A stretch of DNA of 64,000 bases, from NCBI RefSeq assembly GCF_036971445.1, contig NC_091473.1:250914001-250978000 (forward strand), given 5' to 3'. The translations under genes and the position numbers were made by a program. This DNA is from Narcine bancroftii. Its lineage: Eukaryota. The notes under the pieces were generated by a model, which was given only the letters and a program-made list of their open reading frames with translations, ran no database searches and had not been told where the DNA came from. Below, one piece after another: positions 1 through 59,364 of the stretch; position 1 is the stretch's first letter; each line of letters starts with the position of its first letter.

Positions 1-500
1 CAAATTACCAGAAAGAAATTACTAATTGGAAAAAAGCATTGAATAATGGTTCTTTGGCAAAATAATGGTGACAAATAGATATGTTTAAGACCACTTTAAA
101 TTCAGTAGATCAACAAGACAGGGATGCGCATTATCACCATACCAGTTTCCTTTGGCTATTGAACCACTGGCAGAGCTGATAAGAAAAGAACTTACAACAA
201 AGAGAATTAAAGTAAAAGTGGAAGAATTTAAAATTAACATTTTCAGATGATATTAAAGTATATTTAACAGACCCAGACACATCAATAAAAAGGTTATATG
301 CAAAATTGAAAGAATATGGGGCAATCGTTGATAAAAGTGAAGTGATGACAATAAAAAAAGTGGATTATACAAAATGTAAAAAGGAAATCCCTTTAAAATG
401 GCAATCACAGGCTATACCTTACCTAGGTATCATGATAGATGATAATTTAAATCATTTGTATAAATTAAATTAGCAACCATTAATAAGGAAATACAGGAAG
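1..500 (+). mobile_element. L1-clade LINE ORF2 (RT) fragment, degenerate
   Basis: Paralog of 54390-54910, which reads GCPLSPYEFALAIEPL...LFADDIKVYLTDP...YGAISGYKMNIDKSEVM. Confidence 0.8.
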
Positions 501-2060
501 ATTCGACAATGGCTGAAAGGGAGAAGCCAGAGAGTAGTGGTGGATGATTGCTTCTCAGTCTGGATGACTGTGACTAGTGGTGTGCCTCAGGCATCGGTGC
601 TGGGATCATTGTTGTTTGTCATCTATATCAATGATCTGGTTGACAAAGTGATAAATTGGATAAACAAGTTTGCAGATGACACTAAGATTGGAGGTGTTGT
701 GGACAGTGAAGAAGGATTTCAAATCTTGCAGAGGGAACTGGACCAGCTGGTAGAATGGACTGAAAATTGGCAGATGGAATTAAATGCAGACAAGTATGAG
801 GTGTTGTCTTTTGGAGGGACATACATAGAAAGGACATAAACAGTGAATGGTCAGACTCTGAGGATCCAGCGGAACAGAGGGATCAGGAAATACAGATAGT
901 GAATTCCCTAAAAGTGTCATCACATGACGATAGGTCTGCAAATAGAGATTTTGACATATTGGCCTTCATTAACCAAAATATTGAGTGTAGGAGTTGGGAT
1001 GTTATGTTAAAGTTGTATAAGACATTAGTGAGGCCAAATTTGGAGAATTGTGTGCAGTTTTGGTCACATAACACAAGAAAGATATCAATAAGATAGAAAG
1101 TGTGGAGATAAAATTTATAGGATGTTGCTCAAACATCACGGAATAAGATACAAAGTAAGGTGAAACAGGTTAGAACTTTATTCCCTGCAGCATAGAAGAA
1201 TGAGTCTGTTTGATAGAAGTATATAAATTATGATAGTAAATATAGAGATGCTTTTTCCACTGAGAGTAGGTGAGATACAAACCAGAGGATATACGTTTAG
1301 GATGAAAGAGGAAAGCTTTACAGGGAACATTAATGGAAACCTCTTCATACGGAAAGTGGTGGGAGCTGCTAGCTAAAGAGGTGAATGCAGGCTCATTTAT
1401 GAAGAACATGGACAGGTATATAGATGGGGGGTTCATGGAGGCCCATGGAGTGAGAGCAGGTCAGTGGGACTAGGCAAGCACAAATGGTTCAGCACAGTTT
1501 GGAAGGGCTGAAGGGGGCTGATACAGTGCTGTACTGTTCTATGGTTCTAAGGTTTTATGGGAGGTTGAGGCCTTATAAGGCACTGGTGAGACCTCCCCTG
1601 GAGTATTGGGAGCTCTTCATGGAAGAGCTGATGTTGGGAAGGGTCCAGAGGAGGTTCTCACGGATGATTCGGGGGAATGAAAGGGTTATCATATGAGGGG
1701 TGTTTAACAGCTCTCATCCTGTACTCAATGGAATTTAGGAGAATGAGCGTTCTCATTGAAACATTTCAAATGTTGAGAGGTGTGTTCAAAGTAAATGTAG
1801 AAAGGATTTTTCCCCATGGTGGGAAAGTCCAGGACCTCACTTCAGGATTGAAGGGCCTCCACTTAGAACAGAGGTGCAGAGGAATTTCTTCAGCCAGAGT
1901 GTGATAAATCAGTGGAATTTGTTGCCACCGGCACTGGGTGTATTTAGAGCTGAGATTGGTAGGTTCTTCATTACCCATGGCAGTGGGGCTGAGTGGGAAC
2001 ATGGATCAGCTCATGATAAAATGGTGGGGAAGACTCAATGGGCTGGAGCCTATTCCTGAT
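501..2060 (+). mobile_element. CR1-clade LINE 3' fragments (two, end to end)
   Basis: SGVPQASVLGSLLFVIYINDL...KFADDTKIGG and LYKTLVRPNLENCVQFW; a second fragment from ~1560 (YKALVRPPLEY...RNFFSQ). Confidence 0.9.
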
Positions 2061-2269
2061 ACTTTGCCTCCAGTCTGTTCTCGTCTTACACAAAGGGGTG
2101 TGAGCTGAAGTGGAGATTAACCCAAGGCACTGCCCGTCACAATGCAGGGCAGAGGGGTGAATGAGACAGGGTCGAACAATGCAGGGGATAGAATGGTGTA
2201 GGCTGGCCAGGAATGGGCACAATTCTCAGCTGGGGGTGGGGGGCCTAACTCAGTCATGATGATAGATTC

Positions 2270-2490
2270 ACCAACACACTATACAGCACAGTAACAAGCC
2301 CTTCCAGCCAACAAGCCCATCCTGCCCAAATAACCCAATTCACCTACAGCCCCAGTACATTTTGAAGGGTGGAGTTCAACCAGAGGACCTGGAGGATACC
2401 CACGCAGACATGGGGAGACCATACAAGCTGCTTACAGACAGCACCGGATTCCAACCCCAGTTGCTGTAATGGTGATGTGTTAACCGTGAC
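2270..2490 (-). mobile_element. V-SINE-like element (copies ~36425-36645, ~56680-56900)
   Basis: Reverse complement resembles the V-SINE core ...tctccccatgtctgcgtgggtatcctccagg... Confidence 0.6.
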
Positions 2491-2749
2491 AATAAATGTC
2501 CCACCCTACAATTCCGGGACAAGTGGGTGCGTACACGTATGGGAGGGTACATAATGTGGTCACAGTCTGTCCGCGGTACATGAAGACAAGGCTTGGGGTG
2601 GAGAATGCAGTGCCAGTCCAGTGGACAAGCTCTCCTGAAGGACACCGATCTTGTGGAGCACCTGGGAGCTCCACTCATCCAGGAAAGAGGTGGGCACACC
2701 AGAACAATTATGACTGGGGCAATGAAATTTTTGGCGCTGTGGAGAAATG

Positions 2750-2888
2750 AGTTATCAGATAGTTCAGACAGCACAGGAAGTCCATGTCGTGTCAAGAAAG
2801 GAACTGGGCTGTGTGTCTGTTGTGTGAAAGGGGAAGTAGCCAACCTAAAGAGAAGACACGGACCCAGCTGGTGTAATACAGCTTAAAG
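2750..2888 (+). promoter_or_regulatory. Putative TATA-less leukocyte-type proximal promoter (Ets/PU.1 cluster)
   Basis: GGAAGT 2776-2781, GGAACT 2800-2805, AAAGGGGAAGT ~2827-2837, GATA-like TTATCAGATAG ~2752-2762 and E-box CAGCTG ~2866 lie just upstream of the leader ATG. Largely retained in the other two copies. Motif matches only. Confidence 0.35.
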
Positions 2889-2985
2889 ATGGAGGTAGCG
2901 TGGGCTGAATTCACCCACCAGAAACAACCCAGTTATAAGGTTACCATCGCTCTGCTGCTTCTCATCTCTGTTGACCTCTCATCAG
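2889..2985 (+). CDS. Gene 1 leader (signal peptide) exon
   Basis: ATG 2889, MEVAWAEFTHQKQPSYKVTIALLLLISVDLSS(G). Hydrophobic core, then a CAG|GTAAAT donor in phase 1 matching the V exons. Conserved at 37045 and 57301. Confidence 0.8.
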
Positions 2986-3239
2986 GTAAATCATTATATT
3001 TTCATAAACAATGTTCTGTAGCCTTATTCTTAGCTGTTGTTTAGAATCATTCATTTGGGCCATGGTTTTTTTTTAATGTCGGAAGCTGACAAAAGGTAGA
3101 AACATCTGTGTCACAGCCTGCACTGAGTACTGAGTGAAAGATAACTCAATCACAGCCTTGCAGGTTCCTGCACTGACTTCCAGCAGTCGTTGTGGCAGAT
3201 TTATGAGCAGATAATCTGCAATCTCCCTCAAAAACTACC

Positions 3240-3990
3240 CCAGAACCGGAGAAATTTGCAGAGGCCAAGAAACTCAGTTCCATCAGAGACCGGTTCAGAC
3301 AAAGAGAGAAACTGAAAGCAACGTGGAACAGCCACAGAACGAAATTCCGTGGAGAGGAAAGGCAGGATTTCTTCCAAGTCCAGTCGAAGTGGCCACAGTA
3401 CAGAAGCAGAACATTGCCGGAAATCTGCAATAAAAGCAGATCAGGAGAGAAATAGCCTGCAGAGAGAAATCATATTGAGTTTGGATTATTTCCATTAATA
3501 TTTCCATTATTAACAACTCTTTGACAGTATAATCCTTAAAACTTTGTCTCCCTTCCTGGAGACTTGGACACCCAGCCCGAATTGTCACTGGCAGATCAGT
3601 GGCTTGGGACGTTCAAGGTTCCGTGGAAATGGTGTCACTGTTGAGACGCAATCAACCACGATCGAATACCCATTATTCCAAACGCTTCACACCTGCAGAA
3701 CCCCTCCAGCGCTTGCCAAGCCAACTATTTTCATGGTGAGACAGAATAGTCCCAGTTGCAGTCACTCTCCATTAAACCGTGAAAGGTCACACCTCCCCTT
3801 TCCCTCCATCTCCACCGTGGCGAGTCTCCTGTTGTACTCACCTGTGTAAGGAAAAAAGTGGGATGCTGGGAATTACATTTCAGAGGGTTGTCCTTTCCTG
3901 CCATATGGGAGGGGGATGTTTTTAATCCCTATTGGTCCACCAGTCCAGAAATGCAATGGGAGGCCAACGCACGAAGCCCCTTCATCGCCA
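3240..3990. repeat. Locus-specific intronic module X (copies ~7310-8060, 14215-14965, 18025-18635, 37390-38130, 44320-45070, 57655-58262)
   Basis: Shared core gagagaaactgaaagcaacgtggaa...gaaatagcctgcagagagaaat in 7 copies of three sequence classes. I do not recognise it as a known TE. Confidence 0.75.
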
Positions 3991-4069: not shown

Positions 4070-4990
4070 CAACTCTCGTAAAGAGTGAATACCTGTTATT
4101 TCAATCCATTCCGATTTATATACCACAACATTTTTAAAAAAATATTAAATAACAGCATAAGAAGTTTCTTGTGGATCGCAAAGTCTCCAGTGTTTCTGTG
4201 GAAAAATTAACATGGGATTACAAATTTTTGGGGGGTGGTTGGGGTGGCTACGATTACCTGATTTTAGGGAATATTCCTTAGCCGCCCACTCGAGGCTCCT
4301 CGCATCTTTATTTGAGAGAGTGAACCATCATCATGGGTTAATATAGGATGACACAGCATGATGGAGGGGAAGGCAAAAGATTTCATTTACAAAACAAATA
4401 CCAAATGAATAAATAAAAGAACAGATAACCCCATCCTAAAACATCTGGTAAAGATATGGAAGGAAATTAATGATAAGAGATTGTAATCTCACCAAAAGCA
4501 CCTAAATAAGGAGGGAGTCGGACTTGGTCAGATTTATGTAGGGAAATGGTAACATTGGTGATCATTGTCAGACTAAGATTGGTACAGTATAATTTCTTAC
4601 ACCCATTGTATCTCTATATAATAAAAATTATATAAAGGAAAATCAGAGATATCGGAAATGTGCTTCAAGTGTGGGTGAGAAATGGGTACCTTTATACACG
4701 CCACATGGACCAGCACGAAGGTGAGGCCCTTTTGGTTGGAATTATCTCATATATTAACTATAGAATACACTTCCTGCTGGATCGGGAGCTGTATTTATTG
4801 GGAAACTTAGAGGTCGTGAGCAGATCATTAACTAAATTCCAAATTAAATCTGTAGATATTGCCCTGTCAGGAGTAAAAAAAAGCTCAGCGATCACCTGGA
4901 ACTCTGAATCTCCCTTGCTCATCACTCGGTGGTCCACGGAGATGCACAACTGCCTGTCCATGGAGAAAATAACATATAAGAAATAAATAC
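4070..4990 (+). mobile_element. L1-clade ORF2 C-terminal remnant, duplicated with the V-exon unit (copies ~8100-9020, 11655-11920, 15000-15925, 38200-39125, 41757-42025, 45110-46030)
   Basis: GG-LRLPDF motif and degenerate zinc knuckle (CFKCG...GTFIHATW...VRPFW), with frameshifts and stops. Confidence 0.7.
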
Positions 4991-6492
4991 CATGCTTTTG
5001 CAACCTTATCTCAAGCCCTTTGGTGCACAGCTTTAGCACCAGCCCACAGTTCTAAAAAGCTAACAAAATGCTGAAAGGCTAACAAAATTCACAGCAGTGA
5101 AGCTCCCCGAGGAGTGGAAGTCGGGTACCTGAGGTTCTCTTTTCTTTTTCCCATTTCTCTGTTTGCCACTTTAATTGTTTTAGTTGTGGTTTAGATTTCA
5201 AAGTTCTGGGGCATGAAAGGAAGTTACAAACAAGCAGCATAATGTTGGTATCAGAGAAGTGAATTATACTAAACAAAATTGTAAATACATTAAAAATGGA
5301 TTGTTTCTTCGATGTGATATTATATTTGTTTTGGAAAAATTGAAAAATAAAATTTTCAAGAAAGACTGAGTACCTGGTGATCAGAAACTAATTGTAGCAG
5401 GTAAAATGGAATGAATAACATTCTTCAACTAGATAAACTTCAAATTAAGTATTTGTGCTTCTCGCCTGGTTGAAGGGCAGAGCTCACTTGTAGTTGAGTT
5501 TAGTTTCCCCTGCCAACGTTACTCTCTTTTCCTGGCCTTTCCCAAATAACACAATTGTGAAAACAACGACAACTTTGCTTCATCTTTGTGAAATTAAGCT
5601 TTCTTCTGACAGCAATCAAAAACTTAGGCCATCAATAATTATTGATATGCGTCGTTTCACCATTTTAATGTGCTCGATCCCCCTAACTTTCTAACCTTGC
5701 TACGCCCCAGGGGATAGTGGATGCCTGGTGCTCCCTCTAACTATATTCAACCCAATTCAAATAAATAGCCTGGATGTTTCCCTTATCCTGTAGTGTAGGG
5801 TAATTGTCGGAATGGGGTTGAACATGGTTAGAGGAATGACCAGGCCACCACTCCCTACCTACTCCTTACACTCAGAACCCACTCTTCCTGATGGAGATTG
5901 TCTGGCTCTGTGAGTGTGTCAGGGTCACAGGGATCAGGGGGATAAATAACTCTCATGGTCTTCTTGCACAAGCCCCTTTCCAGCCTGGAACTGGGCCTCA
6001 GGGAAAAAGAGGATCTGACTTAGTGTGGGAGAGACATGTGGGGAGAGAGGAGGCAAATCATTTTTTTTCATTCATTGTGATTCTCTGAGTCAGTGAGGAA
6101 TATCCAGCTGCAGATTTTCTAACTGAACTTTTTTTGGGGGGAAATGGTCTCAAGGAGCAAGTCCACCATTTGTTGCCCATCTCTGCTTGCCGCAAGAGGC
6201 TCGTGCTGAGGTCCCTGTGGAACCCCTGCAGAGATCGCATCCCTAGAACTCACCACAAGAAACAACAGACAAACATGTTGGAAAATCAGGCTGAGGCATT
6301 CTGCTTTCACTCAAACCTGAGGAACAGCTTCGATGAAATGAGAATTCACACCAGGATTAGAATATGGAAGTGCAACATGACGTGGACAAAATCATGAATC
6401 TCCATGAACGGTAGAAATGTCACAATTCTATTGCTAAATTCAGCGTGTGTGGATGCAGTGTGGGTAATTTTTCATCTTTTATGTTCCAACAG

Positions 6493-6807
6493 GTTCAACT
6501 GCAATAACTGGTCCCAAACACGTTAAGGGAGAAGAAGGACAGTCGGTCACTGTGGAATGTCGGTATGATCGGAAATACAGGGACTACAAGAAACAATGGT
6601 GTAGTGGTTATTATAATCTATCAAGTGCTGTTGTTGTTTCAACTGATCGCCCACAAAATGGAAGATCATCGATGACAGATAACAAGGCAGAGGCGATAAT
6701 GTCAGTCACCATAGACAACCTACAGAAGGAAGATGAAGGATTGTACTGGTGTGTGATCGAAAAGATAATCGATGAAAAGTTTTTGATTCACTTGCAAGTT
6801 TCTGAAG
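6493..6807 (+). CDS. Ig V-set exon, type A (gene 1 domain 1)
   Basis: ttccaacAG acceptor and G|GTATGT donor. GSTAITGPKHVKGEEGQSVTVECRYDRKYRDYKKQWC...TIDNLQKEDEGLYWC...IHLQVSE shows the GxSVTxxCxY, KxWC and DxGxYWC motifs of CD300/pIgR-type V domains. Confidence 0.93.
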
Positions 6808-9800
6808 GTATGTTGACAATTCCTCCCCATTTGGCCCAAATTTGAACATTGCACCAGTCACACCCTCCACAATCACACCCATTCCAGTCACAAACACTGG
6901 TGACATCAGCTTTTTGATCACTCCAAATCCAATTATAATTCCCTCGATGGGAAAAGTGATCATTACAGAGTGACTCCCAGGAGCATATCGAGGGAGGTCC
7001 ACATACTGCTAGAAGAGGTGGGATGGTGGGTGGAACAGGTCCGGGTGGAGGGGGGGGGTGCTTAAGTGTTTCCACGAAAGCTTATCCTGTGGTGTCATAG
7101 GATCTGCTTCCCATTCTCGCTTGAGAGGAGGAGAGGAATAGACAGTGGCAAAGCTAGGGTGGGGTGTTGGTTGCAGGAGGGAAATAATGCATTCTACAAG
7201 AGTGGTGCATTTTCAACCATTTTTTAATTCTTTAGTTCCCAAATGCAATAAAAGTCGAATCTCTTTTTCACTATTGGTTCCTTTTACTTGGAATCAATGT
7301 GGAAATAGGGTAGAACTGGAGCGATTTGCAGAGGTTGAGAAACCCAGTTCCAACAGAGACCTGCTCAGACAAAGAGAGAAACTGAAAGCAACGTGGAAGA
7401 GCAACAGAACGAAATTCCGTGGAGAGGAAAGGCAGGATTTCTTCCAGGCGCAGTCGAAGTGGCCAGAGTACAGAAGCAGAACATTGCTGGAAATTTCCAA
7501 TAAGAGCAGATCAGGAAAGAAATAGCCTGCAGAGAGAAATGTATTGAGTTCAAATTTTGTTTCCAATATTAACAACTCTTTGATAGTGTCATCCTTAAAA
7601 CATTTTCTCCTTTCCTGGAGACTTGGTGGACACCCACCCCTACTTCTCATTGGCAGATCAGTGGTTGGGGTCATTCGAGGTTCCATGGAAATGGCCTCAT
7701 ACTTGGAATGGAATCGACCACGATCGAATACCCGTTATTCCAAATACTACAGACCAGCAGAGCAGAACTGTTCCAGCGCTTGCCGAGCCAACCACTTTCA
7801 TGGCCACGCAGAATGGTCCCAATTGCAGTCACTCTCCTCTAAACCATTAAAGGTCACAACTCCCCTCTCCCTCTATCTCCACCGTGGTGAGCCCTCAGTT
7901 GCTCTCACCTGTGCATAGAAAAAATTGGGAATTGCATTTCATAGGCTGTCATTTCCTGCCATATGGGAGGGGGATTATTTTCTAATCCTTATCGACCACT
8001 AGTTCTGAAATGGAATGGGAGACCAATGCCTGAAACCCCTTCATCGCTACCAGCCTTGTGGTTATACAGTTGTAGATAAAATAAACGAGAATTGTAGAGA
8101 GGAGAAAATGTGAGGAAAACATGTGCAACTCTTGTAAAGAGTGAGTACCTGTTATTTCAATCAATTCCGATTTATGAACAACATTTTTAAAATATTAAAT
8201 GACAGCATAAGAACTTTCCTGTAGATCTCTGCGGAAAAATTGACGTGGGATTATAAATTTTGGAGGGGGGGAGCGGAAACTACGATTACCTGATTTTAGG
8301 GTAAATTCCTGAGCCGTCCAGTCGAGGTTCCTTCCATCTTTATTTGAGAGAGTGAACCACCATCATGGGTTAACATAGGACGACCTAGCACGGGAGAGGG
8401 GGAGGTGAAAGATTTCATTTACAAAACAAATACCAAATAAATAAAAGAACAGATAACCCCATCCTAAAACATCTGGTAAAGGTCTGGAAGGAAATTAATG
8501 ATTGGATCGGTAAAGAGATTGTAATCTCACCAATGCACCTTAATTCTGAGGGAGTTGGACTTGGTCAGATTTATGTAGGGAAAGTGTAACATTGGTGATC
8601 AACGCCACAATAAGATGGTACAATATAATTTCTTACACCCATTATATCTCTATATAATAAAAATTATATAAAGGAAAATCAGAGATATCGGAAATGTGCT
8701 TCAGGTGTGGGTGAAAAATGGGTACCTTTATACACTCCACATGGACCTGCCGAAGGTGAGGCCCTTTTGGTTGGAATTATCTCATATATTAACTAAAGAA
8801 CAGACTTCCCGCTGGATCGGGAGCTGTAATTATTGGGAAACCTCAAGGTCGTGGGCAGATTATTAACTAAATTCCAAATTAAATCTGTAGATATTGCCCT
8901 GTCAGGAGTAAAAAAAGCTCAGCGATCACCTGGAACTCTGAATCTCCCTTGCTCATCACTCGGTGGTCCACGGAGATGCACAACTGCCTGTCCATGGAGA
9001 AAATAACATATAAGAAATAAATACCATGCTTTTGCAACCTTATCTCAAGCCCTTTGGTGCACAGCTTTAGCACCAGCCCACAGTTCTAAAAAGCTAACAA
9101 AATGCTGAAAGGCTAACAAAATTCACAGCAGTGAAGCTCCCCGAGGAGTGGAAGTCGGGTACCTGAGGTTCTCTTTTCTTTTTCCCATTTCTCTGTTTGC
9201 CACTTTAATTGTTTTAGTTGTGGTTTAGATTTCAAAGTTCTGGGGCATGAAAGGAAGTTACAAGCAAGCAGCATAATGTTGGTATCAGAGAAGTGATTTA
9301 TACTAAACAAAATTGTAAATACATTAAAAATGGATTGTTTCTTCGATGTGATATTATATTTGTTTTGGAAAAATTGAAAAATAAAATTTTCAAGAAAGAC
9401 TGAGTACCTGGTGATCAGAAACTAATTGTAGCAGGTAAAATGGAATGAATAACATTCTTCAACTAGATAAACTTCAAATTAAGTATTTGTGCTTCTCGCC
9501 TGGTTGAAGGGCAGAGCTCACTTGTAGTTGAGTTTAGTTTCCCCTGCCAACGTTACTCTCTTTTCCTGGCCTTTCCCAAATAACACAATTGTGAAAACAA
9601 CGACAACTTTGCTTCATCTTTGTGAAATTAAGCTTTCTTCTGACAGCAATCAAAAACTTAGGCCATCAATAATTATTGATATGCGTCGTTTCACCATTTT
9701 AATGTGCTCGATCCCCCTAACTTTCTAACCTTGCTACGCCCCAGGGGATAGTGGATGCCTGGTGCTCCCTCTAACTATATTCAACCCAATTCAAATAAAT

Positions 9801-10526
9801 AGCCTGGATGTTTCCCTTATCCTGTAGTGTAGGGTAATTGTCGGAATGGGGTTGAACATGGTTAGAGGAATGACCAGGCCACCACTCCCTACCTACTCCT
9901 TACACTCAGAACCCACTCTTCCTGATGGAGATTGTCTGGCTCTGTGAGTGTGTCAGGGTCACAGGGATCAGGGGGATAAATAACTCTCATGGTCTTCTTG
10001 CACAAGCCCCTTTCCAGCCTGGAACTGGGCCTCAGGGAAAAAGAGGATCTGACTTAGTGTGGGAGAGACATGTGGGGAGAGAGGAGGCAAATCATTTTTT
10101 TTCATTCATTGTGATTCTCTGAGTCAGTGAGGAATATCCAGCTGCAGATTTTCTAACTGAACTTTTTTTGGGGGGAAATGGTCTCAAGGAGCAAGTCCAC
10201 CATTTGTTGCCCATCTCTGCTTGCCGCAAGAGGCTCGTGCTGAGGTCCCTGTGGAACCCCTGCAGAGATCGCATCCCTAGAACTCACCACAAGAAACAAC
10301 AGACAAACATGTTGGAAAATCAGGCTGAGGCATTCTGCTTTCACTCAAACCTGAGGAACAGCTTCGATGAAATGAAAATTCACACCAGGATTAGAATATT
10401 GAAGTGCAACATGACGTGAACAAAATCATGAATCTCCATGAACAGTAAAAATGCCACAGTTCTATTGCTAATTTCAGCGTGTGTGGATGCAGTGTGGGTA
10501 ATCTTTCATCTTTTACGTTCAAACAG

Positions 10527-10841
10527 GTTCAACTGCAATAACTGGTCCCAAACAAGTTAAGGGAGAAGAAGGACAGTCGGTCACTATGGAATGTCGGTAT
10601 AATCGGAAATACAGGGACTACAAGAAACAATGGTGTAGGGGTCATTATTATGTATTTAGTTCTCCTTTGGTTTCAACTGAACGCCCACAACATGGAAGAT
10701 TATCAATGACTGATAACATGGCAAAAGGGATACTGTCATTCACCATAGACAACCTACAGAAGAAAGATAAAGGAAGGTACTGGTGTGGGATCGATAAGTA
10801 TATCGATGAAAAGTTTCCCATTGATTTGGAAGTTTATGAAG
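10527..10841 (+). CDS. Ig V-set exon, type B (gene 1 domain 2)
   Basis: aaacAG acceptor, G|GTACAT donor, 315 nt open. ...ECRYNRKYRDYKKQWCRGHYYVFSSPLVST...DKGRYWCGIDKYIDEKFPIDLEVYE. Confidence 0.92.
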
Positions 10842-13397
10842 GTACATTGACAATTTCTCCTCACTCAGTCAAAATTTGAAAATTCCACCCTTGCCCCTCC
10901 CACCCTCAGCTCTGATGGTGACTCAGTCCCACATTTCCATGGCATCAAAGGGGTGGGGACTCATCAACTAGGTTTTTTGTCTCTTGGGGGGAGACAACAA
11001 CACCCCCTCGGCAGGACAGTCCCGACAGCCAACTGTTCTGCTCTTGGGTCATTCCCCCACAGCCAATTGCTCCGAGGTCAGAACCTTGCCCACACCCACT
11101 GGAACAGGTGGGACAGCAGACCTCCACCACACTACCCACCTCTGCAGTCCCACCCAGCCCAGTCCCACCCATTGGTGATATCAGCCGAGTTCTGTTCACT
11201 TCCTCAGTTATTCTCCTGATGGAAAGGCTGATCCTGAGAGAGTGAATTAGATAATCTGGGATATATTTAGCGGGTTGGGCAGCATCTTTTGTGAGAGAAA
11301 CTGGTTTAATATTTAAGAGAGATATCCTTCGTCCGATTTGGGCAAGTTTCAAGATCCAGGTGTGGGAGGAGTCATGGAGGGAAAAGAAAGGAAGCCCATT
11401 GATAATGTCATGGAGCCACTGCGTCTAACAGCATAGAACAGACCCATCAAATCCCCAGCTGTGCTCAACCCACTTCATCTGTCGCATCCTATATGAATGG
11501 TTCTAGGGCCATCTCGATATCCATTCAAGGTAAGAGTCTCTGCCATCACATTCTCAGGCAGTGCTTAAGATCCCAACCATGTTCTGGGTGAGCAAAATCT
11601 TCTCTATATCTCCTATAAAATTTTTTAATTGAACCAAAGAGCTTTGCGCTCTGGTGAGGCCCTTTTGGTTGGAATTATCTCATATATTAACTAAAGAACA
11701 GACTTCCCGCTGGATCGGGAGCTGTATTTATTGGGAAACCTCAAGGTCGTGGGCAGATTATTAACTAAATTCCAAATTAAATCTGTAGATATTGCCCTGT
11801 CAGGAGTAAAAAAAAGCTCAGCGATCACCTGGAACTCTGAATCTCCCTTGCTCATCACTCGGTGGTCCACGGAGATGCACAACTGCCTGTCCATGGAGAA
11901 AATAACATATAAGAAATAAATACCATACATTTGCAACCTTATCTCAAGCCCTTTGGTGCACAGCTTTAGCGAAAGCCCACAGTTCTAAAAAGCTAACAAA
12001 ATGCTGAAAGGCTAACAAAATTCACAGCAGTGAAGCACCTCGAGGAGTGGAAGTCGGGTACCTGAGGTTCTCTTTTCTTTTTCCCATTTCTCTGTTTGCC
12101 ACTTTAATTGTTTTAGTTGTGGTTTAGATTTCAAAGTTCTGGGGCATGAAAGGAAGTTACAAGCAAGCAGCATAGTGATGGTATCAGAGAAGTGAATTAT
12201 ACTAAACAAAATTGTAAATACATTAAAAATGGATTGTTTCTTCAGATGTGATATTACATTTATTTTGGAAAAATTGAAAAATAAAATTTTCAAGAAAAAG
12301 AATGAGTACCTGATGATCAGAAACTAATTGTAGCAGGTAAAATGGAATGAATAACATTCTTCAACTAGATAAACCGAATTAAGTATTTGTCCTTCTTGCC
12401 TGGTTGAAGGGCAGAGCTCACTTGTAGTTCAGTTTAGTTTCCCCTGCCAACGTTACTCTCCTTTCCTGGCCTTTCCCAAATAATAAAATCATGAAATCAA
12501 CGACAATTTTACTTCATCTTTGTAAAATGAAGCTTTTATCTTCCAGCAATCAAAAACTTAGGTCATCAATAATTATTGATATACGTCGTGCTCGATCCCA
12601 CAACTTTCGAACCTTGCTACGCCCCAGGGGATAGTGGATGCCTGGTGCTCCCTCTAACCATGTTCCACCCAATTACAACAAATAGTCTGGACATTGCCCA
12701 CATCCTGTAGCCAAGGATAATTGTCGGTATGGTGTTGAACATGGTAGAAGAACAACCAAGACCCCATTCCATGCCTGTTCCTTACACGCAGAACCCACAC
12801 TTCCTGTTGGAGATCGGCTGGCTCTGTGAGTGAGTCAAGGTCGGGGGAGAAAAAACTCCCATGGTCTTCTTGCACAAGCCCCATTCCAGCATGGAACTGG
12901 GCCTCAGGGAAAAAGAGGATCTGACTTAGTGTGAGAAAGACATGTGGGGAGAGAGGAGGCAAACCATTATTTTCCTTCATTGTGATTATCTGAGTCGGTG
13001 AGGAATATCCAGCTGCAGATTTTCTAACTGAAGTTTCTGGGGGAGTAAGTGGTCTCAAGGAGCAAGTCCACCATTTGTTGCCCATCTCTGCTTGCCTCAA
13101 GGGGCTCGTGCTGAGGTCCCTGTGGAACCCCTGCAGAGATCGCATCCCTAGAACTCACCACAAGAAACAACAGACAAACATGTTGGAAAATCAGGCTGAG
13201 GCATTCTGCTTTCACTCAAACTTGAGGAACAGCTTCGATGAAATGAGAATTCACACCAGGATTAGAATATGGAAGTGCAACATGACGTGGACAAAATCAT
13301 GAATCTCCATGAACGGTAGAAATGTCACAATTCTATTGCTAAATTCAGCGTGTGTGGATGCAGTGTGGGTAATTTTTCATCTTTTATGTTCCAACAG

Positions 13398-13712
13398 GTT
13401 CAACTGCAATAACTGGTCCCAAGCACGTTAAGGGAGAAGAAGGACAGTCGGTCACTGTGGAATGTCGGTATGATCGGAAATACAGGGACTACAAGAAACA
13501 ATGGTGTAGTGGTTATTATAATCTATCAAGTGCTGTTGTTGTTTCAACTGATCGCCCACAAAATGGAAGATCATCGATGACAGATAACAAGGCAGAGGCG
13601 ATAATGTCAGTCACCATAGACAACCTACAGAAGGAAGATGAAGGATTGTACTGGTGTGTGATCGAAAAGATAATCGATGAAAAGTTTTTGATTCACTTGC
13701 AAGTTTCTGAAG
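13398..13712 (+). CDS. Ig V-set exon, type A (gene 1 domain 3)
   Basis: Copy of 6493-6807 at +6905; one synonymous AAA/AAG difference seen; splice sites intact. Confidence 0.92.
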
Positions 13713-17431: not shown

Positions 17432-17746
17432 GTTCAACTGCAATAACTGGTCCCAAACAAGTTAAGGGAGAAGAAGGACAGTCGGTCACTATGGAATGTC
17501 GGTATAATCGGAAATACAGGGACTACAAGAAACAATGGTGTAGGGGTCATTATTATGTATTTAGTTCTCCTTTGGTTTCAACTGAACGCCCACAACATGG
17601 AAGATTATCAATGACTGATAACATGGCAAAAGGGATACTGTCATTCACCATAGACAACCTACAGAAGAAAGATAAAGGAAGGTACTGGTGTGGGATCGAT
17701 AAGTATATCGATGAAAAGTTTCCCATTGATTTGGAAGTTTATGAAG
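17432..17746 (+). CDS. Ig V-set exon, type B (gene 1 domain 4)
   Basis: Copy of 10527-10841 at +6905; splice sites intact. Confidence 0.92.
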
Positions 17747-19422: not shown

Positions 19423-19737
19423 GTTCAATTGCAATAACTGGTCCCAAACACGTTAAGGGAGAAGAAGGACAGTCGATCACTATGGAATGTCGGTATGATC
19501 GGAAATACAGGGACTACAAGAAACAATGGTGTAGTGGTTATTTATATCTATCAAGGGCTGTTGTGGTTTCTTCTGATCGACCACAACATGGAAGATCATC
19601 GATGACTGATAACAAGACAGAGGCGATAATGTCATTCACCATAGACAACCTACAGAAGGAAGATGAAGGATGGTACTGGTGTGTGATCGAAAAAATGATA
19701 AATGAAAAGATTTCATTTTACTTACAAGTTTCTGAAG
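19423..19737 (+). CDS. Ig V-set exon, type C (gene 1 domain 5)
   Basis: AG acceptor, G|GTACGT donor. GSIAITGPKHVKGEEGQSITMECRY...WCSGYLYLSRAVVVSS...DEGWYWCVIEKMINEKISFYLQVSE. Confidence 0.92.
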
Positions 19738-23793: not shown

Positions 23794-23899
23794 ATACTTC
23801 ATCCATTGTAACCTCTGGGCCGAGCACATTCAGCATGAAAACAGCAGGTGCTGAGACCTCCACAGCAGCCTTGCAGACCTCTTCATCGCCTCAAACCTG
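23794..23899 (+). CDS. Ser/Thr-rich stalk exon (gene 1)
   Basis: ttttgaccttAG acceptor (phase 1) and TG|GTCAGT donor (phase 2). DTSSIVTSGPSTFSMKTAGAETSTAALQTSSSPQT(W). Conserved at 63246. Confidence 0.7.
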
Positions 23900-23970: not shown

Positions 23971-24045
23971 CAGAAGAAAGATAAGGCATGATGATCAAAA
24001 ATAAATTCAATGAAAAGTTTTTCATTCACTTGGAACTTTCTGAAG
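23971..24045 (+). pseudogene. Truncated 3' remnant of a V exon
   Basis: cagaagaaagataag...aatgaaaagtttttcattcacttggaactttctgaag|gtacattgacaatttctcctcactc matches the end of the V exons and their donor and intron. The 5' part and the YWC motif are missing. Confidence 0.8.
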
Positions 24046-24269
24046 GTACATTGACAATTTCTCCTCACTCGGCCCAAATTTGAAAATCCCACCCTGGGAC
24101 CTCCCACCCTCGACTCCAATGGTGACTCATACCCTCATCTCCATGGCATCAAAGGACTCATCAACAGGATTTCCTGTCCTTTGAGGGAAGACACCAATAC
24201 CTTCTCCCCTTGGACACGAGTGAATGGATGTTCAACCACTGACCCGACAGAACGGTCCCGACTCCGAGA

Positions 24270-29271: not shown

Positions 29272-29379
29272 GAACTCTGGACTGAATTTTCATAATCTCT
29301 GGGCTGTGTTGCGCTGGCTACTCTTTAAAGCTCTACTTTTCTGCACAGTTTCAATAAAGTGCATGACAAGTTTGCAAAG
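29272..29379 (+). CDS. Transmembrane exon (gene 1) with charged residues
   Basis: tttccttgttttatcAG acceptor completes the stalk's TG+G = Trp. NSGLNFHNLWAVLRWLLFKALLFCTVSIKCMTSLQ, then AG|GTAAAT donor (phase 2). Confidence 0.72.
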
Positions 29380-30806: not shown

Positions 30807-30909
30807 ATGGACTAATGAGACATTCCATGGAAGAGCAGATCCTACCACACGGATTGGAAAAGTGTTTGCCGACTCATCTAATGACCTCGAAATTCAACCA
30901 AAGGATTAA
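30807..30909 (+). CDS. Candidate terminal cytoplasmic exon (gene 1)
   Basis: ttttctgctttattAG acceptor, phase-2 compatible. (R)WTNETFHGRADPTTRIGKVFADSSNDLEIQPKD*; ATTAAA at 31005-31010 downstream. No second copy in the window to confirm. Confidence 0.45.
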
Positions 30910-34414: not shown

Positions 34415-36215
34415 ACATAAACAAAGATTGGATGTACAATTACCTGGAGAGTCAGGGACTGATTGGGGATAGACAACATGGCTTTGTGCATGGTAGATAA
34501 TATTTAACCAATCTCAGAATTTTTTGAGGAGGTTACCAGGAAGGTCGATAAAAGAAAAGCTATGGATGTTGTCTACGTGGACTTTTGTAAGGCCCTTGTC
34601 CAGGTCCTGCATGGGAGGTTGGTCAGGAAGGTTCAGATGCTAGGAATTCATGGTGAGGTAGTGAACTAGATTCGACAATGGCTGAATGGGAGAAGCCAGA
34701 GTGTAGTGGTGGATGATTGTTTCTCTGTCTGGAGGCCTATGACTAATGGTGTGCCTCAGGGATTTGTGCTGGGACTATTGTTGTTTGACATCTATATCAA
34801 TAATCTGGATGTCAATGTGATAAATTGGATCCCCAAGTATGCAGATGACACTAAGATTGGAGGTGTTGTGGGCAGTAAAAAATGTTTTCAAAGCTTGCAG
34901 AGGGATCTGGACCAGCTGGAACAATGGACTGAAAATTGGCAGATGGAATTAAATGCAGACAAGTATGAGGTGTTGCTGTTTGGAGGGACATACATAGAAA
35001 GAACATAAACAGTGAGGAGTCCAGCAGAACAGAGGGGTCTGGAAATACAGATACTAGATTCCCTAAAAGTGGCATCACACGAGGATAGGGCTGCAAATAG
35101 AGCTTTTGGCATAATGGCCTTCATAAATCAAGTGTAGGAGTTGGGATGTTATGTAAATGTTTTATAAGGCATAAGTGAGGCCAAATTTGGAGAATTGCAT
35201 GCAGATTTGGTCACCGAACAACAGGAAAGATATCAATAAGATAGAAAGTGTGGGGATAAAATTCACTAGGATGTGGCTCAGACTTCAGGGACTGAGTTAC
35301 AAGGAAAGGTGAAACAGGTTAGAACTTTATTCCCTGCAGCATAGAAGAATGAGGAGAGGTTTGATAGAAGTATATAAATTATGATAGTAAATATAGAGAA
35401 GCTTTTTCCACTGAGGGTAGGTGAGATACAAACCAGAGGAAATAGGTTTAGGGTGAAAAAGGAAAGGTTTACAGGGAACGTTAGTGGAAACGTCTTCATG
35501 CGGAAAGTGCTGGGAGCTACTAGGTGAATGCAGGCTCATTTATGAAGAACGTGGACAGATACATAGATGGGGGGTTTGTGGAAGCCCATGGAGTGAGAGC
35601 AGGTCAGTGGGATTAGGCAAACAAAACTGGTTCAGCACAGACTAAAAAGGCCAAAGGGGCCTGTTTCAGTGCAGTAATGTTCTATGGTTCTAAGGTTTTG
35701 GGAGGTTGAGGCTTTATAAACGGACAGGGGCTGTACAGGGTGACACCTCCCCTGGAGAATTGAGAGCTCTTCATTGAAGAAAGGGTGTTCTGATGTTGGG
35801 AACGGTTCAGAGGAGGTTCTCACGGGGAATGAAAGGGTTATCATATGAGTGTTTGACAGCTCATGTCCTGTACTCATTGGAATTTAGGAGAATGAGTTCT
35901 CATTGAAACATTACAAATGTTGAGAAGGGTGATCAGAGTAGACGTAGATAGGATTTTTCCCCATGGTGGGAGGGTCCAGGACAAGAGGCAACAATTTCTG
36001 GATTGAATGGCCTCCTCTTAGAACAGAGATGCACAGGAACAACTTCAGCCAGAGGGTGATAAATCAGTGGAATTTGTTGCCACTGGCACTGGGTGTATTT
36101 AGAGCCGAGATTGGTAGGTTCTTCATTACCCATGGCAGTGGGGCTGAGTGGGAACATGGATCAGCTCATGATAAAATGGTGGGGAAGACTCAATGGGCTG
36201 GAGCCTATTCCTGAT
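34415..36215 (+). mobile_element. CR1 LINE RT/3' fragments (paralog of 501-2060)
   Basis: QHGFVHGR, MDVVYVDFCKA, GVPQGFVLGLLLFDIYINNL, KYADDTKIGG. Confidence 0.9.
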
Positions 36216-37044: not shown

Positions 37045-37141
37045 ATGGAGGTAGGGTGGGCTCAATTCACCCACCAGAAACGATCCAGTTATAAGGTTAC
37101 CATCGCTCTGCTGCTTCTCATCTCTGTTGACCTCTCATCAG
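37045..37141 (+). CDS. Gene 2 leader exon
   Basis: MEVGWAQFTHQKRSSYKVTIALLLLISVDLSS(G), phase-1 GTAAAT donor; paralog of 2889-2985. Confidence 0.78.
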
Positions 37142-40629: not shown

Positions 40630-40944
40630 GTTCAACTGCAATAACTGGTCCCAAACAAGTTAAGGGAGAAGAAGGACAGTCGGTCACTATGGAATGTCGG
40701 TATAATCGGAAATACAGGGACTACAAGAAACAATGGTGTAGGGGTCATTATTATGTATTTAGTTCTCCTTTGGTTTCAACTGAACGCCCACAACATGGAA
40801 GATTATCAATGACTGATAACATGGCAAAAGGGATACTGTCATTCACCATAGACAACCTACAGAAGAAAGATAAAGGAAGGTACTGGTGTGGGATCGATAA
40901 GTATATCGATGAAAAGTTTCCCATTGATTTGGAAGTTTATGAAG
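40630..40944 (+). CDS. Ig V-set exon, type B (gene 2 domain 1)
   Basis: Same protein as 10527-10841; splice sites intact. Confidence 0.9.
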
Positions 40945-43501: not shown

Positions 43502-43816
43502 GTTCAACTGCAATAACTGGTCCCAAACACGTTAAGGGAGAAGAAGGACAGTCGGTCACTGTGGAATGTCGGTATGATCGGAAATACAGGGACTACAAGA
43601 AACAATGGTGTAGTGGTTATTATAATCTATCAAGTGCTGTTGTTGTTTCAACTGATCGCCCACAAAATGGAAGATCATCGATGACAGATAACAAGGCAGA
43701 GGCGATAATGTCAGTCACCATAGACAACCTACAGAAGGAAGATGAAGGATTGTACTGGTGTGTGATCGAAAAGATAATCGATGAAAAGTTTTTGATTCAC
43801 TTGCAAGTTTCTGAAG
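43502..43816 (+). CDS. Ig V-set exon, type A (gene 2 domain 2)
   Basis: Same protein as 6493-6807; splice sites intact. Confidence 0.9.
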
Positions 43817-47525: not shown

Positions 47526-47840
47526 GTTTAACTGCAATAACTGGTCCCGAACATGTTAAGGGAGAAGAAGGACAGTCGGTCACTATAGAATGTCGGTATG
47601 ATCAGAAATACAGGGACTACAAGAAACAATGGTGTAGTGGTTATTATAATCTATCAAGTGCTGTTGTTGTTTCAACTGATCGCCTACAAAATGGAAGATC
47701 ATCGATGACAGATAACAAGGCAGAGGCGATAATGTCAGTCACCATAGACAACCTACAGAAGGAAGATGAAGGATTTTACTGGTGTGTGATCGAAAAGATA
47801 ATGAATGAAAAATTTTTGATTCACTTGCAAGTTTCTGAAG
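47526..47840 (+). CDS. Ig V-set exon, type A' (gene 2 domain 3); missed by ORF track
   Basis: ccaacAG acceptor, G|GTACGT donor. GLTAITGPEHVKGEEGQSVTIECRYDQKYRDYKKQWCSGYYNLSSAVVVSTDRLQNG...DEGFYWCVIEKIMNEKFLIHLQVSE, open frame. Confidence 0.9.
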
Positions 47841-54910: not shown

Positions 54911-56470
54911 TTTGACAATGGCTGAAAGGGAGAAGCCAGAGAGTAGTGGTGGATGATTGCTTCTCAGTCTGGATGACTGTGACTAGTGGTGTGCCTCAGG
55001 CATCGGTGCTGGGATCATTGTTGTTTGTCATCTATATCAATGATCTGGTTGACAAAGTGATAAATTGGATAAACAAGTTTGCAGATGACACTAAGATTGG
55101 AGGTGTTGTGGACAGCGAAGAAGGTTTTCAAATCTTGCAGAGGGATCTGGACCAGCTGGTAGAATGGACTGAAAATTGGCAGATGAAATTAAATGCAGAC
55201 AGGTATGAGGTGTTGTCTTTTGGAGGGACATACATAGAAAGGACATAAACAGTGAATGGTCGGTCTCTGAGGAATCCAGCAGAACAGAGGGATCTGGAAA
55301 TGCAGATACTGAATTCCCTAAAAGTGTCATCACATGAGAATAGGTCTGCAAATAGAGATTTTGGCATATTGGCCTTCATTAATCAAAGTATTGAGTGCAG
55401 GAGTTGGGATGTTGCATTAAATTTGTATAAGACATTAGTGAGGCCAAATTTGGAGAATTGTGTGCAGCTTTGGTCACATATCACAGGAAGGATATCAATA
55501 AGATAGAAAGTGTGGAGATAAAATTTATAGGATGTTGCTCAGACATCACGGACTAAGATACAAAGTAAGGTGAAACAGGTTAGAACTTTATTCCCTGCAG
55601 CATAGAAGAATGAGGAGAGGTTTGATAGAAGTATATAAATTATGATAGTAAATATAGAGAAGCTTTTTCCACTGAGAGTAGGTGAGATACAAACCAGAGG
55701 ATATAGGTTTAGGGTGAAAGAGGAAAGCTTTACAGGGAACATTAGTGGAAACCTCTTCATACAGAAAGTGGTGGGAGGTGCTAGTTAAAGAGGTGAATGC
55801 AGGCTCATTTATGAAGAACGTGGACAGGTACATAGGTGGGGGGTTTGTGGAGGCCCATTGAGTGAGAGCAGGTCAGTGGAACTAGACAAACACAAATGGT
55901 TCGGCACAGACTGGAATGGCTGAAGGGGGCTGATACAGTGCTGTAATGTTCTATGGTTCTAAGGTTTTATGGGAGGTTGAGGCTTTATAAGGCACAGTTG
56001 AGACCTCCCCTGGAGTATTGGGAGCTCTTCACTGAAAAGCTGATGTTGGGAAGGGTTCAGGGGAAGTTCTCATGGATGATTCGGGGAATGAAAGGGTTAT
56101 CATATGAGGAGTGTTTAACAGCTCTCATCCTGTACTCATTGGAATTTAGGAGAATAAGCGTTCTCATTGAAACATTTCAAATGTTGTGAGGTGTGGTCAA
56201 AGTAAATGTAGAAAGGATTTTTCCCCATGGTGGGAAAGTCCAGGACCTCACTTCAGGATTGAAGGGCCTCCACTTAGAACAGAGGTGCAGAGGAATTTCT
56301 TCAGCCAGAGGGTGATAAATCAGTGGAATTTGTTGCCACCGGCACTGGGTGTATTTAGAGCTGAGATTGGTAGGTTCTTCATTACCCATGGCAGTGGGGC
56401 TGAGTGGGAACATGGATCAGCTCATGATAAAATGGTGGGGAAGACTCAATGGGCTGGAGCCTATTCCTGA
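54911..56470 (+). mobile_element. CR1 fragments (paralog of 501-2060)
   Basis: ORF 54946-55248 is nearly identical to ORF 537-839. Confidence 0.9.
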
Positions 56471-57300: not shown

Positions 57301-57397
57301 ATGGAGGTAGCGTGGGCTGAATTCACCCACCAGAAACAACCCAGTTATAAGGTTACCATCGCTCTGCTGCTTCTCATCTCTGTTGACCTCTCATCAG
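57301..57397 (+). CDS. Gene 3 leader exon
   Basis: Same peptide as the gene 1 leader; CAG|GTAAAT donor. Confidence 0.8.
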
Positions 57398-59049: not shown

Positions 59050-59364
59050 GTTCAATTGCAATAACTGGTCCCAAACACGTTAAGGGAGAAGAAGGACAGT
59101 CGATCACTATGGAATGTCGGTATGATCGGAAATACAGGGACTACAAGAAACAATGGTGTAGTGGTTATTTATATCTATCAAGGGCTGTTGTGGTTTCTTC
59201 TGATCGACCACAACATGGAAGATCATCGATGACTGATAACAAGACAGAGGCGATAATGTCATTCACCATAGACAACCTACAGAAGGAAGATGAAGGATGG
59301 TACTGGTGTGTGATCGAAAAAATGATAAATGAAAAGATTTCATTTTACTTACAAGTTTCTGAAG
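59050..59364 (+). CDS. Ig V-set exon, type C (gene 3 single domain)
   Basis: Same protein as 19423-19737; splice sites intact. Confidence 0.92.

What the first reader, a model, noticed from the sequence alone, without database searches (positions are those of the whole stretch)
6493..10841. Strong excess of amino-acid-changing differences between V types A and B
Seen (manual codon comparison): about 29 of 105 codons differ in amino acid, but only 2 codons differ purely synonymously (TCG/TCA, ACA/ACT). The first ~37 residues have 3 changes, while the 11 residues after WC (C-C' region) have 8, and the F-G region is also variable. An N-L-S sequon occurs in this loop only in types A and A'. Inference: positive selection on a ligand-binding face.
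Basis: partly seen in the sequence, partly recalled or inferred. Interest (0 to 1): 0.72.

Follow-up and report, generated by a model that had tools for sequence, protein, structure and literature searches.

The report
Diversified face of ray immune receptor
These are two neighbouring antibody-like domains of an electric-ray cell-surface receptor related to CD300; across the whole domain their amino-acid differences are about what chance gives, but they crowd onto one predicted binding face, likely through selection for different targets, which is a common pattern in immune receptors.

Summary
The counts are right (29 amino-acid-changing codons, 2 purely silent, 3 in codons 1-36, 8 in 37-47, N-L-S only in A and A'), but the 'strong excess' is not. 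Eight codons carry several changes; neutral simulation expects 27-29 changed codons; whole-domain dN/dS is 1.6-2.4 and not significant by likelihood tests (p 0.09-0.41); across all four types it is 0.96. The quiet first third is a conversion/recombination tract: silent sites and the adjacent intron are equally homogenised. The 8-in-11 cluster is not significant once that is allowed for (p 0.29). What survives is a face effect: on the predicted GFCC' face 13 of 22 positions differ, against 7 of 26 other exposed ones; dN/dS there is about 4-7 on the B branch (p 0.02-0.003, uncorrected, face drawn after seeing the data), about 1 between A and C. The exons belong to Narcine bancroftii CD300/pIgR-like genes already modelled in RefSeq: one activating-type, one inhibitory-type, sharing identical A, B and C domains, which appear spliced in likely-RNA runs. 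Verdict: likely diversifying selection on one face, held against conversion, as known for CEACAM and CD300 pairs. Ligand unknown. New member of a known kind.

The parts
6493..6807 (+). V exon type A (copy A1), first Ig domain of the activating-type gene
   Evidence: Open frame, AG/GT, Pfam V-set E 7e-13; 100% identical to Narcine bancroftii RefSeq isoforms; model pLDDT 95.6, nearest fold CD300lf TM 0.95
10527..10841 (+). V exon type B (copy B1), second Ig domain; the long branch
   Evidence: protein branch 0.45 against 0.02-0.13 for A, A', C
10640..10660 (+). CC' loop of B (codons 38-44; in A 6606-6626), 4 of 7 residues differ from A
   Evidence: DSSP of the model, codon table
10775..10837 (+). 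F strand, FG loop and G strand of B (codons 83-103; in A 6741-6803); 8 of 13 outward or loop positions differ, the strongest part of the signal
   Evidence: omega 5.0-7.9, p 0.019/0.002 for A-B
6615..6623 (+). N-L-S sequon in the CC' loop of A (also A'); one TAT-to-AAT change, Tyr in B, C and 14 of 19 outgroup domains
8927..10326 (+). Intron block upstream of B1 nearly identical to the one upstream of A1 (about 4893-6292): 2 differences in 1400 nt
   Evidence: longest identical run of polymorphic sites p 0.0002
10227..10636 (+). Homogenised block: last 300 nt of the intron plus codons 1-36, 1-6% different between all types, with no silent difference among A, B and C
10635..10640 (+). Internal GT donor-like site in B (GGT|GTAGGG; GTAGTG in A, A', C); its +5 G is the base of the S37R change
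   Evidence: three RefSeq isoform models end a B domain here (P0002, P0004, P0010); not seen among the joints shown
2889..2985 (+). Leader exon of gene 1
   Evidence: leader-to-V GT-AG joint in run X5
13398..13712 (+). V exon A2 (one silent difference from A1)
17432..17746 (+). V exon B2 (identical to B1)
19423..19737 (+). V exon C1, membrane-proximal domain of gene 1
   Evidence: spliced to the stalk in X5, X6, X8 (loose end at 19741)
23794..23899 (+). Ser/Thr-rich stalk exon of gene 1
29272..29379 (+). Transmembrane exon of gene 1 with Arg and Lys inside the hydrophobic stretch (activating type, inferred)
30807..30909 (+). Last coding exon of gene 1, tail without tyrosine
   Evidence: window exons reproduce the 662-aa P0009 exactly
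37045..37141 (+). Leader exon of gene 2
40630..40944 (+). V exon B3 (identical to B1), first domain of gene 2
43502..43816 (+). V exon A3 (identical to A1)
47526..47840 (+). V exon A' (11 nt from A)
59050..59364 (+). V exon C2 (identical to C1); followed by a stalk exon from 63246; the ITIM-bearing tail of the RefSeq model P0012 lies beyond the window

Best explanation
A and B are tandem V-domain exons of a Narcine bancroftii CD300/pIgR-like receptor whose differences crowd onto one predicted face (GFCC'), likely because selection favoured and kept a different binding surface on B while conversion and unequal crossover likely erased differences in the neighbouring intron and the first third of the exon. 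Shown: exon structure, splicing, the mosaic of identical and 20%-diverged blocks, conserved core, enrichment of changes on the face. Inferred: (1) a leader-V-stalk gene gained extra V exons by tandem duplication; (2) exchange between repeats homogenised the block from about -300 to Cys36; (3) the 3' two-thirds kept its differences, with replacement changes on the face running 4-7 times the neutral rate on the branch between B and A/C; (4) the A-B-A-B-C (charged transmembrane, activating type) and B-A-A'-C (two ITIMs, inhibitory type) receptors therefore display the same set of surfaces, as paired receptors do when a pathogen exploits the inhibitory one. The ligand and the selective agent are not identified.
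For: Face 13/22 changed vs 7/26 other exposed (p 0.025); also A-C 8/22 vs 3/26 (p 0.045) and B-C 15/22 vs 8/26 (p 0.010); outward GFC strand positions 7/11 vs ABED 0/7. Fixed-site omega on the face: A-B 3.8-5.8, p 0.030-0.002; three-way model, B branch 4.5 (p 0.023, kappa free) or 6.7 (p 0.003, kappa 2.4 from introns); bootstrap 0 of 280 and 1 of 294. Holds without the CC' loop (4.7-7.4, p 0.018/0.002) and for a set defined only by variability in 19 non-Narcine domains (4.2-6.2, p 0.018/0.002); 0 of 167 random 22-of-48 exposed sets reached the same likelihood ratio. Face pN 18/49 = 0.37 exceeds the most diverged intron window, 48/204 (p 0.026). Conserved framework is spared: 3/24 vs 23/44 (p 0.001). 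Transversion excess in the exon (14:27) against introns (155:126), p 0.018. Divergence steps from 3-4% to 18-21% at codon 36/37. A, B and C occur unchanged in likely-RNA contigs with GT-AG joints. In CD300lf the cleft between CC' and CDR3 loops binds both phosphocholine and norovirus (PMC6166816, passages); conversion plus replacement changes on the CC'C''FG face is reported for Xenopus CEACAM pairs (PMC5112662, passages).
Against: Whole-domain omega is not significantly above 1 in any pair; M0 over four types 0.96; M2a vs M1a p 0.09-0.41 for four types, and M8 vs M8a p 0.049/0.018 over codons 1-104 falls to 0.185/0.055 over 37-104. One shared face omega for A, B, C is 1.6-2.4 with p 0.03-0.24; C-B alone p 0.15/0.03; A-C face omega about 1. 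The tests rest on 6.5-9.5 silent changes per pair. The face was drawn after I had seen the differences, from DSSP strands and alternation, without coordinates or solvent accessibility; 8 sets x 3 pairs x 2 kappa settings were tried without correction. Off the face B also shows omega 1.1-1.4 against 0.2-0.3 for A/C, which looks like relaxation; 6 of 20 buried and 7 of 26 other exposed positions changed. Only 2 of 8 positions matched to the CD300lf pocket differ. Intron blocks reach the same 19-24% divergence as the exon, so the divergence peak alone is not diagnostic. Recombination can inflate codon-model tests (established knowledge).
Confidence: 0.52

Rival explanations
1. No positive selection: the face is simply the least constrained surface (omega about 1), B is further relaxed because it is often skipped or truncated, and A-B happens to have few silent changes, by chance or because short conversions removed them.
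For: 29 changed codons equals the neutral mean; P(2 or fewer silent) 0.01-0.04 before correction for choosing among 6 pairs; A-C face omega 0.8-1.1; B off-face omega 1.1-1.4; RefSeq models skip or truncate B; B contigs have the lowest depth of the three types in X5 and X6 (contig depth is a poor measure); the same face is the most variable class in other rays too (75/175 vs 54/206 vs 28/160, non-independent pairs), which relaxed constraint also predicts.
Against: The null needs 0.85 neutral changes per codon on the B branch alone, at or above the oldest intron blocks for a whole pair, and is rejected at p 0.023/0.003; framework spared in B; all three B copies intact and identical.
Confidence: 0.3
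2. Selection is real but concerns how neighbouring domains pack or pair (A-B-A-B arrays without a linker, or receptor dimers), not an outside ligand.
For: The strongest signal is on F and G strand positions 83, 97, 99, 101, 103, running towards the C-terminal end where the next domain joins; pocket-equivalent positions mostly unchanged (2 of 8); net charge differs, A -2 and B +4; B always lies beside an A in the modelled proteins.
Against: CC' and FG loop tips (39, 41-43, 89, 91) also differ; isoform models tolerate A-A' and A-C neighbours; related receptors use this face for ligands.
Confidence: 0.1
3. The 3' two-thirds of B was copied in from an older, more distant paralogue, so the A-B distance reflects an older split and the step at codon 37 is the edge of the imported tract.
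For: Sharp step at codon 36/37; B keeps the outgroup residue at several positions such as 37, 45, 67, 101; a remnant of another V-exon type lies at 23992-24047.
Against: B groups with A, A', C (99/98 support); silent divergence of B is not larger than that of C; the nearest other Narcine paralogue found is 38% identical (P0078); the type-specific contigs listed for DNA run X1 at 80% likeness match A, B, C or known flanks (56 rows not shown).
Confidence: 0.06
4. The near-identical repeats are assembly duplications, or types A and B are alleles placed in tandem.
For: B1 = B2 = B3 and A1 = A3 to the base; some introns are identical over 3.7 kb.
Against: A-to-B and A-to-C GT-AG joints in likely-RNA contigs; in DNA run X1 contig depths are 26.3 (A types), 16.7 (B), 20.8 (C) against 5.7 and 7.45 for single-copy pieces (weak); flanks of identical exons differ. 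It would not alter the A-B comparison.
Confidence: 0.02

Closest known systems
RefSeq models of this locus: Narcine bancroftii 'polymeric immunoglobulin receptor-like' XP_069798179-190 (P0001-P0004, P0009-P0015)
   Same: 100% identical; window exons reproduce the 662-aa isoform exactly.
   Different: The records carry an automatic name only; selection, conversion and pairing are not part of what the calls showed.
Mammalian CD300 family (CD300lf/CLM-1; CD300A/CD300C pair)
   Same: Nearest fold (TM 0.95, 38% identity); activating and inhibitory genes side by side with shared ectodomain sequence; conversion between CD300A and CD300C is reported (PMC12447643, passages).
   Different: CD300 has one V domain and two disulfides (PMC3031540, passages); here 4-5 V domains, and Cys36 has no partner (Ser/Arg at 44).
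Polymeric immunoglobulin receptor (pIgR)
   Same: Tandem V domains of the same family; best sequence hits among solved structures.
   Different: Domains here are recent copies, 72-100% alike; ITIM or charged-TM signalling ends; no test of immunoglobulin binding or transcytosis.
Skate modular domain immune-type receptors (MDIR; Cannon et al. 2006, paper not held, known to me only through PMC3031540)
   Same: Cartilaginous-fish multigene family of activating/inhibitory CD300/pIgR-like receptors.
   Different: No MDIR-named record turned up among the 28 proteins looked up by name, so sequence membership was not tested.
CEACAM paired receptors (Xenopus, mammals); opsin-type divergence peaks under conversion
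   Same: Conversion tracts without silent changes inside V exons, with replacement changes on the CC'C''FG face (PMC5112662, passages); divergence peak in a converted background as a mark of selection (PMC3924837, passages).
   Different: Unrelated receptor family; there the diversification is between genes, here between tandem exons within each gene and shared by both genes.

Membership tests
CD300/pIgR-like V-set receptors (broad family) | V-set Ig domain closest to CD300/pIgR in sequence and fold | tested here: met
   Pfam V-set; PDB sequence hits pIgR, CD300lf; Foldseek top 10 all CD300lf/CD300f
CD300/pIgR-like V-set receptors (broad family) | Type I membrane protein with leader, stalk, TM and either ITIMs or a charged TM residue | tested here: met
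   Gene 1: Arg and Lys in TM, no tail Tyr; P0012: IVYTTI and VTYSAV
Mammalian CD300 | Second disulfide (Cys36-Cys44) in the C-C' hairpin | tested here: not met
   Cys36 present, position 44 is Ser (A, A', B) or Arg (C); both cysteines in 10 of 19 close outgroup domains and 285 of 419 wider ones
Mammalian CD300 | Single extracellular V domain | tested here: not met
   5 and 4 V exons in the RefSeq models; a one-domain form from the leader at 57301 is possible but not shown
Mammalian CD300 | Metal-dependent phospholipid binding between CC' and CDR3 loops | not testable with these tools
   By motif register (inferred) the Asp98 equivalent is Asp93 in A and B, Asn in A' and C
pIgR | Binds polymeric Ig and carries it across epithelia | not testable with these tools
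   No binding or tissue data; signalling ends fit leukocyte receptors (inference)
Skate MDIR | Sequence clustering with MDIR2-4 | not tested
   No MDIR-named sequence obtained; source paper not held
Paired receptors under diversifying selection | Activating and inhibitory genes share ectodomain sequence | tested here: met
   A, B and C exons identical between the two genes
Paired receptors under diversifying selection | dN/dS above 1 on the binding face | tested here: inconclusive
   Face omega 4-7 on the B branch, p 0.02-0.003 uncorrected; about 1 for A-C; whole domain not significant
Paired receptors under diversifying selection | A pathogen or foreign ligand engages the receptor | not testable with these tools
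   none

The most novel reading that the evidence does not exclude
A germline cassette receptor system in rays: one activating and one inhibitory gene are assembled from the same exchangeable V exons, each type holding its own selected GFCC' surface, and alternative splicing (skipping of B, an internal donor created by B's own S37R base, a second leader before C2) deals out different domain arrays, with an unpaired Cys36 replacing the CD300 lipid-pocket disulfide, so that specificity is tuned by exon order and not by gene number.
Probability: 0.15. Interest if true: 0.6.

Novelty: new member of a known kind. Interest (0 to 1): 0.3.

Why it matters
If right, it extends the known recipe of paired immune receptors (shared ectodomains kept alike by conversion, one face driven apart) to an electric ray and to tandem exons inside single genes, and gives a short list of 13 residues that should set A versus B specificity. 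It is also a clean warning: counting purely silent codons overstates selection, and a conversion edge inside an exon mimics a conserved half and a hypervariable half. The pattern itself is ordinary for this kind of receptor.

Tried and rejected
Whole-domain positive selection: rejected as unsupported. Purifying selection as the cause of the quiet first 36 codons: rejected, since silent sites (0 differences among A, B, C) and the adjacent intron (1-4%) are equally quiet and these codons differ at 53 of 264 positions in paralogue pairs of other rays. The CC' loop as a stand-alone hot spot: p 0.29 for the window, omega 2.4-3.6 with p 0.19/0.06. The divergence peak alone as proof of selection: intron blocks are as diverged. 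The three-sequence M2a result (p 0.022) was set aside because omega ran to its bound on two triple-change codons (91, 97). No whole genome is held for this window, so copies outside the window could not be counted. No run is on record as RNA (no RNA holder listed); X5, X6, X8 are guesses supported by GT-AG joints. Contigs showed no B alleles in X1, X5, X6, but contigs drop rare variants. Run X7 has many chimeric contigs and low depth, so its B-intron/A-exon contig was not used. The internal B donor was not seen among the joints shown (17 joints not shown). A search with the inhibitory tail for shorter relatives scored nothing. Paper searches listed no study of this Narcine locus or of selection on it; the library lacks most subscription papers, the MDIR paper was not held, and I opened no supplements. 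No complex prediction was run, as no partner is known.
Full report
What is there. The window holds nine intact 315-nt Ig V exons on the + strand, all AG/GT and phase 1-1: type A at 6493, 13398, 43502; B at 10527, 17432, 40630; C at 19423, 59050; A' at 47526. They match Pfam V-set and, among solved structures, pIgR and CD300lf. A is 100% identical to RefSeq 'polymeric immunoglobulin receptor-like' isoforms of Narcine bancroftii. Gene 1 is leader (2889), A-B-A-B-C, stalk (23794), TM with Arg and Lys (29272) and a tail without tyrosine; these exons reproduce the 662-aa record P0009 exactly. The RefSeq model of gene 2 is leader (37045), B-A-A'-C, stalk (63246), and, beyond the window, a TM and tail with IVYTTI and VTYSAV. 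A charged TM without tyrosines and a two-ITIM tail are the standard marks of activating and inhibitory receptors (established knowledge; adaptor binding not tested). Contigs of three runs that the tool guesses to be RNA hold A, B or C pieces without a difference and show GT-AG joints leader-to-V, A-to-B, A-to-C and C-to-stalk.

The observation. Residue 1 here is the codon at 6495. But the two exons differ at 41 bases, and 8 codons carry two or three of them; pathway counting gives 6.5 silent and 34.5 replacement changes. Scattering 41 changes neutrally gives 27-29 changed codons and 6-8 purely silent ones; the chance of 2 or fewer silent is 0.007-0.039, uncorrected, for the most extreme of six pairs. 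Codon-model omega for A-B is 1.57-1.65 (p 0.36-0.41), or 2.1-2.4 (p 0.09-0.16) with kappa fixed at 2-3 (intron counts 53:46 and 102:80 imply about 2.3-2.5). Over A, A', B, C the single omega is 0.96; M2a against M1a gives p 0.09-0.41, and M8 against M8a p 0.049/0.018 over the whole exon but 0.185/0.055 over codons 37-104. These models are my own implementation, not PAML. So the excess is mild, not strong.

The quiet first third is a homogenised block. A1 and B1 differ at 2 of 1400 bases of upstream intron, 11 of the last 300, 3 of 110 in codons 1-36, then 38 of 205 in the rest of the exon and 11 of 48 just downstream. All types are 1-6% apart from -300 to Cys36, with no silent difference among A, B, C in codons 1-36, and the groupings of informative sites change between segments (A1 with B upstream, A1 with A2 and A' in the exon; run test p 0.0002). 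That is conversion or unequal crossover, not purifying selection. Once the analysis is limited to codons 37-104, the 8-in-11 cluster has P 0.29. B versus C shows a divergence island (4% upstream, 21% in codons 37-105, about 2% a little downstream), the pattern described for selection resisting conversion (PMC3924837, passages); but intron blocks elsewhere reach 38-48 differences per 204 nt, so the island alone proves nothing and instead sets a neutral ceiling near 0.19-0.24.

Where the changes sit. The model of A has mean pLDDT 95.6 with strands C 33-37, C' 45-49, D 58-63, E 68-73, F 82-88, G 94-103 and its nearest fold is CD300lf (TM 0.95). This was done after seeing the differences. A-B changes: 13/22, 6/20, 7/26 (face vs other p 0.025); A-C 8/22 vs 3/26; B-C 15/22 vs 8/26; outward strand positions 7/11 on the GFC sheet, 0/7 on ABED. 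Positions conserved in 419 homologous domains (the 11 isoform records of this locus removed; at least one distant Narcine paralogue, P0078, remained) are spared: 3/24 vs 23/44. Fixed-site omega on the face is 3.8-5.8 for A-B (p 0.030-0.002), 1.9-2.8 for B-C (p 0.18-0.03), 0.8-1.1 for A-C, and 1.6-2.4 when shared by all three (p 0.24-0.03). Letting the B branch have its own value gives 4.5 (p 0.023) or 6.7 (p 0.003), with 0.8-1.1 on the A/C face, 1.1-1.4 off-face on B and 0.2-0.3 off-face on A/C; bootstrap 0 of 280 and 1 of 294. The result holds without the CC' loop and for a set chosen only from variability in 19 non-Narcine shark and ray domains (omega 4.2-6.2, p 0.018/0.002; 13 of its 22 positions are also in my face set); for a set from all 419 domains p is 0.060/0.009; 0 of 167 random exposed sets matched it. 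Face pN of 18/49 exceeds the most diverged intron window (p 0.026). None of these p values is corrected for the 8 sets, 3 pairs and 2 kappa settings tried, and all lean on fewer than ten silent changes per pair.

Against the simple ligand reading. The F/FG/G part carries more of the signal (8/13) than the CC' part (5/9, p 0.19/0.06), and only 2 of 8 positions matched by motif register to the CD300lf pocket differ. In CD300lf that cleft binds phosphocholine and norovirus and is floored by the Cys36-Cys44 disulfide (PMC6166816, passages); here Cys36 is present but 44 is Ser or Arg. About half of the A-B changes (16 of 29) are off the face. The four Narcine types form one clade (99/98) with B on a long branch; at several sites B keeps the outgroup residue, so 'B branch' means the whole path between B and A/C.

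Mechanism. Most likely (0.52): tandem duplication of a V exon, repeated exchange between repeats that homogenised introns and the 5' part of the exon and keeps the two genes matched, and diversifying selection on the GFCC' face that made and preserved a distinct B surface. Exon structure, splicing, mosaicism, core conservation and face enrichment are shown; omega above 1 on the face is suggestive; selection by a pathogen or ligand is inferred from relatives. Main rival (0.30): an unconstrained surface plus relaxation of B and few silent changes by chance. Lesser rivals: domain packing (0.10), an imported old tract (0.06), assembly artefact (0.02).

Comparison and novelty. It works like a CD300 or CEACAM receptor pair: conversion between CD300A and CD300C (PMC12447643, passages) and conversion plus replacement changes on the CC'C''FG face in Xenopus CEACAMs (PMC5112662, passages) are in print. 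It belongs to the broad CD300/pIgR-like family, is not a CD300 in the strict sense (several domains, no second disulfide; definition from PMC3031540, passages), is not shown to be a pIgR, and is probably of the skate MDIR kind, which I could not test. PMC6795676 (passages) had nothing on it; PMC7042247 I saw only in search listings. Searches listed no paper on this locus. Earlier unreviewed notes of this scan report similar patterns in skate and shark clusters; they are leads, not support, and they suggest the pattern is common. Verdict: observation partly confirmed, interpretation partly supported, new member of a known kind, interest 0.3.

Noticed in passing
window 10635-10640 (also 17540 and 40738 in B2, B3): The base that makes S37R in B is the +5 G of an internal GT donor; three RefSeq isoforms cut a B domain there, leaving a 35-residue stub fused to the next domain. 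Not seen in the contig joints shown.
   Followed up: partly
window 57301-57397: A third intact leader exon, same protein as the gene 1 leader, with about 3.9 kb of copied flank (93% identity to 1-3872), sits between A' and C2. It could start a one-domain inhibitory receptor (leader-C-stalk-ITIM) that the RefSeq models fetched do not show.
   Followed up: partly
codon 36 and 44 of all nine V exons (A1: 6600-6602, 6624-6626): Cys36 has lost its usual partner (Ser or Arg at 44), leaving a predicted free thiol in every domain; most skate, sawfish and catshark relatives fetched lack both cysteines, stingray and Mobula keep both.
   Followed up: partly
codons 87-97 of the V exons: The FG loop is about 3 residues shorter in all Narcine types than in most other ray domains fetched.
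   Followed up: no
codons 63-65 (C1: 19611-19619): C keeps the family's N-K-T sequon in the DE loop; A and A' (N-K-A) and B (N-M-A) lack it, while A and A' gained N-L-S in the CC' loop.
   Followed up: partly
window 23992-24093: Remnant of the 3' end of a further V-exon type with its donor and intron start, just after the gene 1 stalk exon.
   Followed up: no
P0029 (Mobula hypostoma) domains 34-140 and 266-372: The two domains are identical over positions 4-36 and differ at 17 of the 68 later ones: the same 5' homogenisation boundary in another ray lineage (protein level only).
   Followed up: no
run X1 laid on window 10440-10940: Contig depth for type C (20.8) is about three times that of single-copy pieces (5.7, 7.45), hinting at a third C exon outside the window.
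   Followed up: no
window 47526-47840 and flanks: A' is a patchwork: A-like in codons 37-104 (5 differences) but with B/C-like downstream intron and a C-like block upstream.
   Followed up: partly
window 474-1096, 34670-35008, 52690-53340, 54916-55248 and others: Decayed LINE reverse-transcriptase fragments flank the genes and are copied with the repeats; the family (CR1-like) is my recollection from the motifs, not a tool result.
   Followed up: no
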